From contig JAAOXT010000001.1 of assembly GCA_018221045.1 (NCBI GenBank), positions 603-64,602 on the forward strand: a DNA stretch of 64,000 nucleotides, written 5' to 3'. Positions 45,377 to 49,800 of the stretch are shown here, in pieces (position 1 is the first letter of the stretch; every line of letters begins with the position of its first letter). A model generated the notes under the pieces. It was not told where the DNA came from and searched no databases. It was given only the letters and a program-made list of their open reading frames with translations. This DNA is from Nanobdellota archaeon. GTDB taxonomy: Archaea; Nanobdellota; Nanobdellia; JAAOXT01. The position numbers and the translations under genes were made by a program.

Positions 45377-46543
45377 ATGAGGAAGATAGATTTGAGGGTC
45401 GGGTTATTATTCTTAATATTTTTATCAGGTTTTTTTCTTAAAAGCGTTGAAGCAGCTTATTTAAGGTATTATAATGTTGAGATAGGATATTGTTTTTCTT
45501 CAATGAATTGGTGCCAAAATTATGGTTTATGCGAGGACTGTTATCACAAAGACTGTATTAATGCTTCGCAGGGTTTTAGAAGTTCTTGCGAGATTTCAAA
45601 AGGTTGTGTGAAGAACTATTTTGATTGTTCTATTGGCACGTATTGTTTGAGCGGTTCCTGCATTTCTTGCGATAACTTGATTGATGGGGATTGTTCTGGG
45701 TTTCAGTGCCCGAACGACCCTGACTGCTTAGACACAGGGTTGGTGGAGTACGAAGCCTGTAAGCACAATGTTCAATGCTTGTCGAATAATTGTGTTGCAA
45801 ACTACACGTCTTCAGGTATTGGCGAGCCGGCTAACATTTGCTGTGATGCTGGGCAGTGCGCTGTTTTTCAGTGCGGTCCACCATGCTTAACCCAATGCAT
45901 TAATTGGGGTCAGTGCGCCACGCAGACAAAAAATATTTTGAGCAAAGGTTACTTCCCTGAAGGGAGTTGCGAACTCCAGACAGCTGACCAATCCCAAAAA
46001 GCTTGCGGTTGCGTTTATGATAATGATTATAATGATAGCACGGCTTGGGACCCTGTTAACGGTTGTTGCGACAGCAGAGATGATAACTGGTTTTTCTCAG
46101 ATAACTCGAATAAAACTTGCGATGAAGGTAGGGTAGTGACGTGCAGAGTCATTGAGCCCAATCCTAAGACCGATGACTTAAACAATAAATATGATAATAC
46201 GGCAGATAATTCTTTTAGGTGGACGCGAGAAAAGAAGAGTTCTGAACCTTCAACTCATCCACTGGAAGTATTGACTCTTGATGAGAACGCGACTCAAGAG
46301 TTAAAGAATTATTCAGTTATTCCTGTTCACGTTGTTAAAAAGCGTTCCGCCCCACCAGTCATGAGTTATGCGCCGAGCATTAGTGAATCTGAAGAAAAAA
46401 TAATGCCCGTCACTGTTCCCGCTCGCTCGGAAAAACCGTCACGGGTCCAAGAAATCCGGTCAGATGATAGAACCTTTATTGTCAAATTTATTAGAGTTGT
46501 TGTTAACTGGTTTTCTCAGCAACCAAAAAATTTAAAACAGTGA
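45377..46543 (+). CDS. Secreted cysteine-rich protein (388 aa) sharing a Cys-rich module with the downstream giant protein
   Basis: It has the signal peptide MRKIDLRVGLLFLIFLSGFFLKSVEA. More than 40 Cys fall in the first roughly 260 aa. Residues 128-256 align with giant-protein residues 101-228. The C-terminal part is Pro/Ser-rich, and there is no C-terminal anchor. Confidence 0.75.
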   Translation: MRKIDLRVGLLFLIFLSGFFLKSVEAAYLRYYNVEIGYCFSSMNWCQNYGLCEDCYHKDCINASQGFRSSCEISKGCVKNYFDCSIGTYCLSGSCISCDNLIDGDCSGFQCPNDPDCLDTGLVEYEACKHNVQCLSNNCVANYTSSGIGEPANICCDAGQCAVFQCGPPCLTQCINWGQCATQTKNILSKGYFPEGSCELQTADQSQKACGCVYDNDYNDSTAWDPVNGCCDSRDDNWFFSDNSNKTCDEGRVVTCRVIEPNPKTDDLNNKYDNTADNSFRWTREKKSSEPSTHPLEVLTLDENATQELKNYSVIPVHVVKKRSAPPVMSYAPSISESEEKIMPVTVPARSEKPSRVQEIRSDDRTFIVKFIRVVVNWFSQQPKNLKQ

Positions 46544-46560
46544 ACGCTTCTCTTATTTTT

Positions 46561-46835
46561 TTGGCTAGGCCGGGCAGCTAGCAGTTGCTTGTTACCACAA
46601 ATCCTGCTTTACGGTGGGGCCGAAGCTTGCCATGAGGGCTTGCGTTTTGGGAGTGGCCCGCGCTTTGAGCGTCGAAGCCTCGCCCGGACGGGTGCTTGTC
46701 CTCGTGAATCGGGTCAGGCGGGGAACCGAGCAGCCCTAAGCGAAGTCATTGCACGCTGTTCGGATTACGGGGTGGAGCGAGAAGCCGGAACAACCGTTTC
46801 CGAAGCGTCAGGTTCGAAAGGCAAGCACGCCAAAC
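46561..46835 (+). ncRNA. ffs: Signal recognition particle RNA (archaeal 7S RNA)
   Basis: It is a GC-rich island in AT-rich DNA. The 5' end GGCTAGGCCGGG and the GGGGCCGAAGC element are typical of archaeal SRP Alu domains. A helix-8-like segment, GGGTCAGGCGGGGAACCGAGCAGCCC, contains a GGAA tetraloop. A TATA-like AATTTAAAA lies about 27 nt upstream and an oligo-T tract lies downstream. The ends are approximate. Confidence 0.85.
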
Positions 46836-46876
46836 TCTAACAATTTTTATTAACTCGTAAAATCACGTGTTATGGG

Positions 46877-49800
46877 TTGAAATCTCTCGAAAACAAGAAC
46901 GCGCTGGTAGTTTTAGGAATAACTATTTTTATCTTTTTTTTCGTGCTGGCAGGTTTCTCCAGCAAAGATTTCTTAAAAAGAAACGTTGTTTCACTGCTTT
47001 GCGTGTTTTGGTCAATGGTTCTTGCAATCAACTTTTTACTCCTTGAAAATCCTATTGGAAATAAAGCGTTCTCAAAACTTTTTTTCTACGCCTTAATAAT
47101 GTCTTTTTTCATGGTTTACACAGTGTTTTTCAGTGATCCACAAATCGTTTTGGCTGCTTCGGCAGAGTACGGGCCTTGCTCGGTTGACGGGGACTGTAAT
47201 TCAAATAATTGTGTTTACAACTATACTTATTCAGGAACAGGAACTCCTGAAAAGATTTGCTGCGACGCTAGCCAGTGTGCCGTGTGGTTTGGAGGGCCTC
47301 CTTCTTCAACAAATTGTATTAATGAGAATCAGTGCGCTGGTGTAGCGTACGGTTCTGATATAGGTTACTTTCCAGTTGGATGTGTTCTTGAAAGACCTGA
47401 TACAACCCTGAGGGCTTGCGGTTGTGATTACAGCGGGAATCCAGCGGATAGTACGGGGTGGGACGCTACTGGAACCAAATGCTGTTCGTATTCTGACGAC
47501 GACTGGCTTTTCACTGGGAGTTCAACAAAAGGATGCGACAACGGAGTAGTGGTTGATTGCGCTTCAGGAACTGCTTGCCGTTTCATTGACGGGGCGACGG
47601 ATTATTACTGCACGGGAAGCATTTTTACCACGTCTTCCACAGCGAAAGGCCAGACCTGTAACACGAATTATGTTTGTACTGCAGATGACGGGACTTGTTG
47701 CAATTCAAACCTTGTTAAGGACACGGATACGAGCACTTACAATTGTGGTTGCGACGCTTATCATGACGGGTTCGCGTGCGACGGGTCAGTGACTGGTGGA
47801 ACGTTTACGCAGGATAAGGTTTGCATGTTCGTGGCTGCACAGAGTAATTACTTGTGCTACGCGGCGATGGCTTCTTATAACATCGGGCTTAACAGGTATA
47901 TTTACGGCTGCGAATACCCTACAGGAACTCCTCTTTACGGCGATTCATGCGACACGACTTACACTGACGGCAACTTCGACGCGAACGGAATTTGTTATGG
48001 TTCAGGAAGTTGTTGCACCACTACTTACGTGGACGGAGACAATGATGGAAATTTTGACGATAATGATTGTGGATGCTCCTCCACTCATGATGGTAAGAGA
48101 TGTGACAGCAACGTTGACCGTACTTGGGATGGTGTGTGCGCGTATACTGGTGCTGCATGGACTTGCGACACTTCGGATGTTTTTTATGATGGGTCTGATT
48201 ACAGGACGGCTGGTTCGAGCGCTACGGATGGTTACAGGTGCAGGAGTGGTTCAGTGGGTTCTGGAGGCTTTTCGCAGAACGGGATGGGTTCAGCAAGCTC
48301 TTGCACTACCTCTGACGTGGTTTGCCCTAGTGGAAAAGGCAGTGCTTGTTCGTCTTGCTCGTCAAGTTCTGATGGAAACATGTGCGATTCTACAGTGACT
48401 TCAGGAGATTTTGGGCAGACAGGTATTTGCGCCAGCTCTGATGGGAATTCTTTTGATTGTGATACTTCTGGACACGTGGTTTACACAGGAAGTTACTATG
48501 ATACATCTTGTTCCATTTCTGAAGACGGAAAAATGTGTGATAATACTATTACGAGCGGGGGGAACTTTGGTCAAGATGGTTCCTGCGCTACGAGTGATGA
48601 GGGAACTACTTGGATGTGCGACACCGACGCATCGGACGTGGCGAGCACTGGAACTTACAACGCCACGGACTGCTACGTGAGCGCGACGTACAATTACTTG
48701 GCTAACTCTTGCGACAGTCTCGGAAACAGCGGAGGAAACGTGGCTTATGATGGGGTTTGCTTCCTGCAAATAGATACAACTTGGAATTGTTGCACGACTT
48801 ACGCGACCAACAGCACTGAAATCGATAACCCTGACGTGTGCGGTAACGAGGCAACAGTGTGTGGCGCGAGTTCGAATGGGCTAAAATGTGATGACGTGAG
48901 TGACGCGACGTGGGCGCCAGGAGATAAGCGGTGCGATGAAAGCGGCACGGCTTGCAGAACTTGCACTTTCGCTACTCGCGTTGACACTGAAAGTCTTTGC
49001 GAATCAGGGTGCGGGGCCAACAGTGTTTGCGACGAGATAGCCATAGAAGCTGTTACAGGGAATTATTGTTGTGGTGACTGTGTATCCCCTGATAACACTG
49101 TTTCAGGAACGGTTGTTTGGGGGGACTGCGACCACAAGTCGCAGACAGGATCAAGCGATTATTGTTTTGATTTGAGCGCTGACCAGTGCTTCCATCAGTC
49201 AGGGGACTCGTGCATTGCTACGGGCTGGACTTTAACTGAAACTGGTTGTCCGAACCCGCGATACCAAAACCAGGCTGGAAGCTGGGTTAACAACTCTTAC
49301 TGCACGAGCGACTGCGCCGATTCTGGCACATCGTGCTATTATGAAACCAGTTTGAACACTCCTGCTGACAGGTCTGATGATTGCGGTGCGTCGGGTTGCC
49401 AGGTCAGTTCCTGCTCAATGCAGAAAGGTTTCCTTTGCCAGTATTCTACAGGGTGCTCGTGCGATAACACGGAGTGCGCTGCTGACGCGGTAAGACAAGG
49501 ATACCAGACAGGCAGTTGCTCTGGCGGGGCGTGCAATTACGCTCCAAAAGTTGACTCGCATTCCATGAGCCCGGATCCTGTGTACGTTAACGAAGAAGTG
49601 ACTTTTTTGGCAACTGTCTCGTCGGATGACGGGGACATCGCGAAAACAGAGGTTTGGGCTTATGTTACAGGAGATTACTCTGCTTATGAGATGAGTTGCA
49701 CTGACGGCTCCTGCAGTTATTCGCATAACTTCACCAGCCTCGGACAAGGAAATTATTACATTAACGTTACAGACAATGATGGTTTGAGCAACACTAGCAG

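What the first reader, a model, noticed from the sequence alone, without database searches (positions are those of the whole stretch)
45758..47560. Paralogous cysteine-rich module of about 128 aa duplicated on both sides of the SRP RNA gene
Residues 128-256 of the 388-aa protein (nt 45758-46144) align with residues 101-228 of the giant protein (nt 47177-47560). Most Cys positions are conserved, including runs such as NNCV.NYT.SG.G.P..ICCDA.QCAV, GPP...CIN..QCA, GYFP.G.C, ACGC.Y, DST.WD....CC, DD.W.F and C D.G.VV.C. By eye the identity is roughly 40-45%. A shared disulfide-knotted head domain on a short secreted protein and on a giant anchored protein suggests a soluble version and a tethered version of the same binding module.
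Basis: seen in the sequence. Interest (0 to 1): 0.6.

Follow-up and report, generated by a model that had tools for sequence, protein, structure and literature searches.

The report
Cysteine-rich module shared by two surface proteins
A tiny symbiont-type (DPANN) archaeon carries the same orphan, cysteine-rich, roughly 133-residue extracellular module on a short secreted protein and at the front end of a neighbouring giant anchored surface protein; the duplication is real and old, the module matches no known domain, and what it does is only inferred.

Summary
Residues 124-256 of the 388-aa protein and 97-228 of the 1800-aa protein are true paralogues: 48% identity, E 3e-33, z about 40 against shuffles and 17.5 with the Cys positions held fixed.

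The module has no Pfam, NCBIfam or PDB sequence match. In 1.84 billion representative proteins the only other real member is a 336-aa metagenomic orthologue of the short protein. That orthologue sits in the same gene order: Ig-like anchored protein, short protein, SRP RNA, giant. The pair is therefore ancient, and the sister species lost the short gene.

The module is composite. Its last 50-70 residues also recur in other giant proteins of this lineage.

In the giant, the module follows a signal-peptidase-like AASA|EY site. It is by far the most divergent stretch between the two orthologous giants (52-60% identity against a median of 92%). The giant ends in a PG-x, transmembrane, basic tail, and the genome encodes an archaeosortase-family enzyme. 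The short protein has a signal peptide and no anchor.

Best reading: a fast-evolving recognition or adhesion module in tethered and free forms. Binding, disulfides and fold are all unproven. Interest is moderate to low.

The parts
44460..45347 (+). 295-aa secreted Ig-like protein with a C-terminal VPGIQ, hydrophobic, YQKI tail. It is the conserved upstream neighbour of the locus.
   Evidence: ORF. Weak HYDIN/VesB Ig-like Pfam hit. Hydropathy. The orthologues are 91% identical in G001 and 61% identical in the metagenome contig L009; the L009 copy ends in a literal PGF, transmembrane, RFKKP tail.
45335..45351 (+). Promoter-like 17-mer CCAAAAAATTTAAAACA (BRE/TATA-like), 26 nt upstream of the short gene's ATG. 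An exact copy lies at 46523-46539.
   Evidence: These are the only two exact copies in the window. Reading it as a promoter is inference.
45377..46543 (+). Gene of the 388-aa short secreted Cys-rich protein (P0001).
   Evidence: The orthologue P0008 (336 aa) is 43% identical over 270 aa.
45377..45454 (+). Predicted signal peptide, residues 1-26, ending VEA|A.
   Evidence: This is the only hydrophobic segment of the protein. The cleavage site is inferred from the -3/-1 rule.
45455..45745 (+). N-terminal Cys-rich domain of the short protein (residues 27-123, 14 Cys). It is absent from the giant.
   Evidence: The Cys pattern is conserved in P0008.
45746..46144 (+). The shared module in the short protein, residues 124-256 (17 Cys, invariant NYT sequon at 45800-45808).
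46145..46540 (+). Cys-free, charged, Pro/Ser/Thr-rich tail of the short protein (residues 257-388). It has no membrane segment.
   Evidence: Composition and hydropathy. It cannot be aligned with the tail of P0008.
46523..46539 (+). Second exact copy of the 17-mer, inside the last codons of the short gene and about 20-25 nt upstream of the SRP RNA.
46558..46836 (+). Archaeal SRP (7S) RNA gene between the two paralogues.
   Evidence: Rfam RF01857, 133 bits. It is at the same position in G001 and in L009/L010.
46877..52279 (+). Gene of the 1800-aa giant surface protein (P0002). The TTG start is conserved in G001 and in L009.
46877..47164 (+). 96-aa N-terminal leader with three hydrophobic segments, ending AASA.
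   Evidence: Hydropathy. Under purifying selection against G001 (dN/dS 0.12-0.22). The leader is shared with two other giants of the genome.
47165..47560 (+). The shared module in the giant, residues 97-228 (15 Cys, NYT sequon at 47219-47227). It is the most divergent stretch between the orthologous giants.
47414..47629 (+). Recurrent sub-module (CGC..WD..CC..DDW.F..K.CD.G..C....YYC.G), residues 180-251. It overlaps the last third of the module and adds a 23-aa tail.
   Evidence: Alignment A3. Copies occur in other giants of G000, G001 and G393. The AF2 model has pLDDT 73.5.
52202..52276 (+). C-terminal LLPGLNAS, hydrophobic, WERL tail. It is a candidate archaeosortase sorting signal and membrane anchor.
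   Evidence: An archaeosortase-family gene is present in the genome.

Best explanation
The two stretches are old paralogous copies of one lineage-restricted, Cys-rich extracellular module of about 133 residues.

In the giant protein the module begins right after a signal-peptidase-like site (AASA|EY). After it come about 670 residues of Cys-rich repeats, then about 870 residues of sequon-rich, Cys-poor stalk, then a PG-x, transmembrane, basic tail. That tail is probably processed and lipid-anchored by the genome's archaeosortase-family enzyme.

In the short protein the same module sits between a second Cys-rich domain and a disordered-looking tail with no anchor, behind an ordinary signal peptide. 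That copy is therefore released, or held only non-covalently.

I read the module as a recognition or adhesion module of a small-genome (830 kb) DPANN archaeon. The giant would present it on the cell. The short protein would supply the same specificity in free form, for example to pre-coat, bridge or compete for the same partner.

Shown here: the paralogy, the domain order, the export and anchor signals, the conserved synteny, the narrow distribution, and the exceptional divergence of the giant's head. Inferred: cleavage of the leader, disulfide bonding, N-glycosylation at the invariant NYT, any binding, and the relation between the free and tethered forms.
For: - Paralogy: 48% identity, E 3e-33; z about 40 and 17.5 against two kinds of shuffles.
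- The short gene is functional and ancient. Its 336-aa orthologue P0008 has all module Cys columns conserved and lies in the same order, Ig-like protein, short protein, SRP RNA, giant N-terminus, on four metagenome contigs.
- Export and anchor features, and an archaeosortase-family gene (TIGR04178, 56 bits).
- The giant's head (residues about 101-213) is the least conserved part of the protein between G000 and G001. Identity there is 52-60% in 60-aa windows, against a median of 92%. pN is 0.25-0.39 against 0.06 overall. Exposed recognition surfaces typically show this pattern.
- The Cys count changes only in even numbers among the four copies, as expected for disulfide pairs.
- The stalk carries 34 N-x-S/T sequons, and an AglB/STT3 gene lies 5 kb downstream, consistent with a glycosylated surface protein.
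Against: - There is no functional, structural or expression evidence. AF2 on the whole module failed (pLDDT 43). The sub-module model (pLDDT 73.5) matches nothing in PDB or BFVD.
- pS is also raised in the head (0.77-0.94 against 0.49). The divergence may therefore reflect allelic replacement rather than selection on binding.
- The giant's leader has three hydrophobic segments. If it stays uncleaved, the module is membrane-proximal.
- The sister species does without the short gene altogether.
- The known relatives come from anoxic sediment, where extracellular disulfides are not assured.
Confidence: 0.5

Rival explanations
1. The module is a self-association (homotypic docking) element of the cell envelope. 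The short protein is a subunit that docks on the giant's N-terminal module, so the two are parts of one envelope structure. On this reading there are no free and tethered copies of a binder for an outside partner.
For: The two genes are adjacent and the arrangement is conserved, together with a third anchored protein. In G001 the loss of the short gene coincides with a 24-aa deletion (4 Cys) in the giant's module. This could be co-loss of an interface, but it is a single case.
Against: The giant's module diverges much faster than the rest of the protein, which is unusual for a packing interface. The short protein's module does not track it: short against giant is 44-61% identical in every segment.
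Confidence: 0.2
2. The cysteines are ligands for metals, or for sulfide or mineral surfaces, and not disulfide partners. The module would be a metal- or mineral-binding element suited to sulfidic, anoxic sediment.
For: The sister genome comes from a Guaymas Basin hydrothermal sediment core. CC and CGC motifs are present.
Against: The Cys number changes only in pairs between copies. There are no His-rich or classical cluster motifs, and no match to any metal-binding family.
Confidence: 0.1
3. The short gene acts as a donor cassette. Gene conversion between it and the giant's head renews the exposed tip, as pilS/pilE-type systems do.
For: Segment III of the G001 giant is closer to the short proteins (58-60%) than to its own orthologue (44%). 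Synonymous divergence in the head is saturated while the flanks are not.
Against: The two copies in G000 share only 71% nucleotide identity over 83 nt, so there is no recent conversion tract. The simplest reading is that the G000 head is the derived state. The short gene has its own promoter-like element, signal peptide and conserved orthologue, so it is an expressed protein gene. The genome has no reverse transcriptase, so no diversity-generating retroelement is involved either.
Confidence: 0.05
4. The short gene is a decaying partial duplicate of the giant's 5' part and has no function of its own.
For: It is absent from the sister species. Its C-terminal 132 residues are unconserved.
Against: A 43%-identical orthologue keeps every module Cys, the extra N-terminal domain and the signal peptide, at the same locus, in a lineage whose neighbouring protein is 61% identical. 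The reading frame is intact.
Confidence: 0.03

Closest known systems
PGF-CTERM / archaeosortase-anchored archaeal surface glycoproteins (for example the Haloferax volcanii S-layer glycoprotein and ArtA; reviewed in PMC6098224 and PMC7157517)
   Same: The layout is the same: secreted, sequon-rich, with a C-terminal tripartite tail (PG-x motif, hydrophobic helix, short polar or basic end). The genome has an archaeosortase-family gene. The neighbour's orthologue even ends in a literal PGF tail.
   Different: The motif here is PGL or PGI, and no NCBIfam PGF-CTERM model hits it. The enzyme is a small 182-aa family member that scores below the ArtA cut-off. None of this concerns the Cys-rich module itself.
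Giant surface proteins of DPANN archaea thought to mediate host contact (for example the SPEARE proteins of Nanohaloarchaeota; recalled from memory, not fetched)
   Same: A very large secreted protein in a tiny-genome DPANN archaeon, with a presumed role at the cell-cell interface.
   Different: No protease, nuclease or other recognisable domain was found. The protein is Cys-rich, and no sequence relationship was tested or seen.
Eukaryote-type Cys-rich extracellular modules (EGF-like, furin-like, TSP1, PSI)
   Same: A small, Cys-dense, beta-rich extracellular module, used repeatedly in large surface proteins.
   Different: There is no Pfam hit at E <= 1 for the 388-aa protein (P0001), nothing but a weak DUF7507 hit elsewhere in the giant, and nothing credible at E <= 10 for the sub-module copies. 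There is no PDB sequence hit and no Foldseek hit better than E 2.9. The resemblance is only general.
Hypervariable receptor-binding tips on conserved stalks (phage tail-fibre tips, bacterial adhesin tips)
   Same: The stalk is about 92% identical between the two species, while the terminal module is 52-60% identical and carries indels.
   Different: No binding partner is known, there is no homology, and the raised pS suggests replacement as much as selection.

Membership tests
Known Cys-rich extracellular domains (EGF-like, furin-like and others in Pfam-A / NCBIfam) | A significant match to the family profile | tested here: not met
   Pfam gives 0 families for P0001 at E <= 1, and only a weak DUF7507 hit elsewhere in P0002. 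NCBIfam gives nothing relevant. Pfam run on 8 sub-module copies gives nothing credible.
Any solved fold (PDB) or predicted viral fold (BFVD) | Sequence or structural similarity to a solved or predicted structure | tested here: inconclusive
   A profile search against PDB sequences gives a best E of 0.056, which is spurious. Foldseek with the sub-module model (pLDDT 73.5) gives best E 5.1 in PDB and 2.9 in BFVD. The whole-module model was too poor to search with (pLDDT 43).
PGF-CTERM / archaeosortase sorting system | A C-terminal tripartite signal: short motif, hydrophobic helix, basic end | tested here: inconclusive
   LLPGLNAS-FLVLLLLVAGFFLW-ERL and VPGIQPIFFALLLLSAGLFLYQKI are seen in the sequence. 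The motif is PGL or PGI rather than PGF, and there is no NCBIfam hit. The orthologue P0013 has PGF...RFKKP.
PGF-CTERM / archaeosortase sorting system | An archaeosortase gene in the same genome | tested here: met
   The 182-aa ORF on contig C15 hits TIGR04178 exo_archaeo at 56.2 bits against a cut-off of 23. It scores below the cut-offs of every named subfamily, ArtA included.
Diversity-generating retroelement target | A reverse transcriptase and a template/variable repeat pair | tested here: not met
   No PF00078 match in the genome, which is 90% complete. The head has no near-identical DNA repeat anywhere in the genome.
Sec-type secreted protein (short protein) | An N-terminal basic, hydrophobic, small-x-small signal and no further membrane segment | tested here: met
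   MRK, then an 18-residue hydrophobic core, then VEA|A. The Kyte-Doolittle scan finds no other segment. No dedicated signal-peptide predictor was available.
Mobile insertion with target-site duplication (for the short gene) | Flanking direct repeats created by insertion, with the gene absent from the ancestral locus | tested here: not met
   An 18-nt exact repeat flanks the gene. However, the gene is present at the same locus in a more distant relative, so its absence from G001 is a loss. The repeats look like promoter elements.

The most novel reading that the evidence does not exclude
The short gene and the giant's head form a two-copy system. The free copy modulates, or by occasional gene conversion renews, the specificity of the exposed attachment tip of a DPANN episymbiont. 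This would be an archaeal counterpart of decoy or donor-cassette arrangements in bacterial and parasite surface antigens, built on a fold with no known relative.
Probability: 0.07. Interest if true: 0.7.

Novelty: new variant of a known kind. Interest (0 to 1): 0.35.

Why it matters
DPANN archaea depend on contact with host cells, and the molecules that make that contact are largely unknown. This locus offers a concrete, small and expressible candidate. It is an orphan Cys-rich module placed at the front of a giant anchored protein, it evolves much faster than the rest of that protein, and it has a naturally soluble paralogue that could be used directly as a probe for its partner.

If the module proves to be a binder, it defines a new domain family and gives a handle on host specificity in an uncultured lineage. 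If not, it is one more lineage-specific surface-protein duplication.

Tried and rejected
- AF2 on the whole module with the four available sequences gave pLDDT 43, which is unusable.
- Word-index homologue searches found nothing beyond the query itself and the G001 giant. These used P0001 114-256, P0002 60-330, and a 341-aa N-terminal piece meant to catch fragments.
- In the exhaustive profile search, hits P0009-P0012 are spurious. They are long tandem-repeat proteins matched in 9-10 short stretches.
- Pattern scans of viral contigs found nothing. Scans of genome contigs found only G001. The metagenome scan found only the P0008 contig.
- The sub-module alignment was too variable for a pattern scan.
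- The diversity-generating retroelement idea was rejected: no reverse transcriptase and no template repeat.
- I first read the 18-nt direct repeat flanking the short gene as a sign of insertion. I rejected that because the gene is ancestral at this locus.
- A search for other short/giant pairs sharing a head, by all-against-all BLAST of 87 Cys-rich ORFs of the genome, found none.
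Full report
**What is there.** The window holds a 388-aa ORF (45377-46543, P0001), an archaeal SRP RNA (46558-46836, RF01857, 133 bits) and an 1800-aa ORF (46877-52279, P0002), all on the plus strand. The genome is 830 kb in 31 contigs and about 90% complete. Its only congener in the genome collection is deposited as 'Candidatus Parvarchaeota archaeon isolate Meg19_1012_Bin_507'. Meg19 is a core from the Megamat site in Guaymas Basin hydrothermal sediment (PMC10290634). The organism is therefore a DPANN-type archaeon.

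**The observation.** BLASTP aligns P0001 114-256 with P0002 87-228 at 48% identity (69/144, 3 gaps, E 3e-33). Nothing else between the two proteins is significant.
- The local score is 341, against 42 +/- 7.5 for composition-preserving shuffles.
- With all Cys fixed in place the score is 334, against 61 +/- 16. Non-Cys identity is 52/114.
- The module scores only 46 against the giant's other Cys-rich region.

The conserved block starts at E-Y (residues 124 and 97) and ends at V-V-x-C (256 and 228). At DNA level only 83 nt align, at 71% identity, so the duplication is old.

**Is it a known domain?** No.
- Pfam gives nothing for P0001 at E <= 1, and only a weak DUF7507 hit far downstream in P0002.
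- NCBIfam gives nothing.
- A profile of the two copies finds no PDB sequence.
- An exhaustive HMMER pass over 1.84 billion representative proteins returned seven hits. Two are the queries, four are tandem-repeat artefacts, and one is real: P0008, 336 aa, E 1.5e-42.
- Scans of viral, genome and metagenome contigs add nothing new.

**The short protein is a conserved gene.** P0008 is 43% identical to P0001 over 270 residues. The match includes the signal peptide region and a second Cys-rich domain in front of the module. The C-terminal tails cannot be aligned. All 16 Cys columns of the module are identical in the two.

P0008 lies on four metagenome contigs. The longest contigs show the same order as the window: a 292-aa Ig-like anchored protein (61% identical to the window's 295-aa protein), the short protein, the SRP RNA, then the TTG start and first residues of a giant.

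The sister species G001 has the 304-aa protein, the SRP RNA and a 2077-aa giant but no short gene, either at this locus or elsewhere. G001 therefore lost the gene; G000 did not gain it.

**The module is composite.** Its last 50 residues, plus about 23 more in the giants (CGC..WD..CC..DDW.F..K.CD.G..C....YYC.G), recur in other proteins. There are three copies in a 3470-aa protein and one in a truncated 1183-aa protein of the same genome, and one in a G001 protein.

A profile of eight copies was run against 401 genomes of the class (235 genera). It found this sub-module only in the own genus, in one 1859-aa ORF of another family (E 7e-11), and in one marginal case. The first two-thirds of the module (C-x5-C-x4-C-V-x-NYT, ICCD-x2-QCA, C-I-x3-QCA, G-x-FP) is shared in full only by the four proteins named above.

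AF2 on the sub-module gave four beta strands at pLDDT 73.5. Foldseek found nothing in PDB or BFVD (best E 5.1 and 2.9). AF2 on the whole module failed (pLDDT 43).

**Topology.** P0001 has a single N-terminal hydrophobic segment ending VEA|A. It has 31 Cys in the two domains and a 132-residue Cys-free tail rich in charge, Pro, Ser and Thr.

P0002 has a 96-residue leader with three hydrophobic segments ending AASA, directly followed by the module. Cys-rich repeats then run to about residue 900. A Cys-poor stretch with 34 N-x-S/T sequons follows, and the protein ends in an LLPGLNAS, hydrophobic, WERL tail.
- The leader is under purifying selection (dN/dS 0.12-0.22).
- The leader is shared by two other giants of the genome.
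- The 295-aa neighbour has the same kind of tail, and its metagenomic orthologue ends in a literal PGF...RFKKP.
- The genome encodes a 182-aa exosortase/archaeosortase-family protein (TIGR04178, 56 bits against a cut-off of 23).

Anchoring of the giant is thus well supported. Cleavage of its leader is inferred only from the A-x-A rule.

**Evolution of the head.** The two orthologous giants are 89% identical overall (pS 0.49, pN 0.06). The stretch at about 101-213 is the lowest of the whole protein. Identity there is 52-60% in 60-aa windows, against a median of 92% and a 5th percentile of 74%. pN is 0.25-0.39 and pS is 0.77-0.94.
- G001 lacks 24 residues of the module, including four Cys, and has two new Cys.
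- G000 lacks one pair of Cys.
- Cys counts in the aligned block are 16, 14, 16 and 14.
- In the central segment the G001 giant resembles the short proteins (58-60%) more than its own orthologue (44%). The G000 head is therefore the derived form.

Raised pS together with raised pN points to allelic replacement, or to very fast change, rather than to simple positive selection. No reverse transcriptase is present.

**Interpretation.** The facts fit a surface-exposed, rapidly changing recognition module. It is presented at the front of a long anchored glycoprotein and also made in free form from the neighbouring gene. None of the following is demonstrated: binding, disulfides, leader cleavage, expression.

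The rivals are:
- homotypic docking of the short protein on the giant, which fits the coincident loss of the short gene and of module segment II in G001;
- metal or mineral binding by the thiols in a sulfidic habitat;
- a donor-cassette role for the short gene;
- a functionless duplicate, which the conserved orthologue makes unlikely.

**Verdict.** This is a real, old duplication of an orphan Cys-rich extracellular module within a conserved three-gene surface-protein locus. It defines a new domain family with a very narrow distribution. The arrangement itself, surface-protein paralogues sharing a module, is ordinary.

Noticed in passing
window 45319-45379 and 46507-46569; L009 1256-1316 and 2318-2376; L007 7329-7393: The regions just upstream of the short gene and of the SRP RNA resemble each other within each genome. 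In G000 an exact 18-mer ACCAAAAAATTTAAAACA sits inside a 33-nt repeat. In the metagenome relative the pair is AAACCTT(T)AAAACCCT. Both are followed by a T-rich run before the start, and the sequences differ between genomes. They are probably BRE/TATA promoters kept alike. In G001 the short gene is missing exactly between these two elements, which is what a deletion by recombination between them would leave.
   Followed up: partly
window 46877-47164; also genome contigs C3 (3470-aa ORF) and C28 (578-aa ORF): Three giant proteins share a roughly 100-residue N-terminal leader with three hydrophobic segments ending in an A-x-A-like site. The TTG start is conserved in three lineages. This is an unusual export or anchor leader, and its topology is unknown.
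   Followed up: partly
window 52202-52276 and 45273-45344; genome contig C15 13.0-13.6 kb (L014 1432-1980, minus strand): PGL and PGI variants of a PGF-CTERM-like tail occur on two proteins of the locus. A small (182-aa) archaeosortase-family gene passes only the family signature model. Its best subfamily scores are exosortase X and pacearchaeosortase, both below cut-off.
   Followed up: partly
window about 48440 (P0002 residue about 522); L007 (P0014 residues 523-821): The G001 giant has 299 extra residues of Cys-rich CGC..DG..CD repeats compared with the G000 giant. This is a repeat-number change in the stalk.
   Followed up: no
window 45800-45808 and 47219-47227: An N-Y-T sequon is invariant in all four module copies. 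An AglB/STT3 oligosaccharyltransferase gene lies at 57313-59745. This may be a conserved N-glycosylation site inside the module.
   Followed up: no
genome contig C3 642-11051 (minus strand): A 3470-aa protein with 143 Cys, three copies of the sub-module and several CCGDD motifs. It is paralogous to the giant over its first 750 residues or so (27.6% identity, E 5e-33).
   Followed up: partly
window 52307-52390: A tRNA gene directly follows the giant gene, and it does so in G001 too. The giant is thus bracketed by two stable-RNA genes in both species.
   Followed up: no
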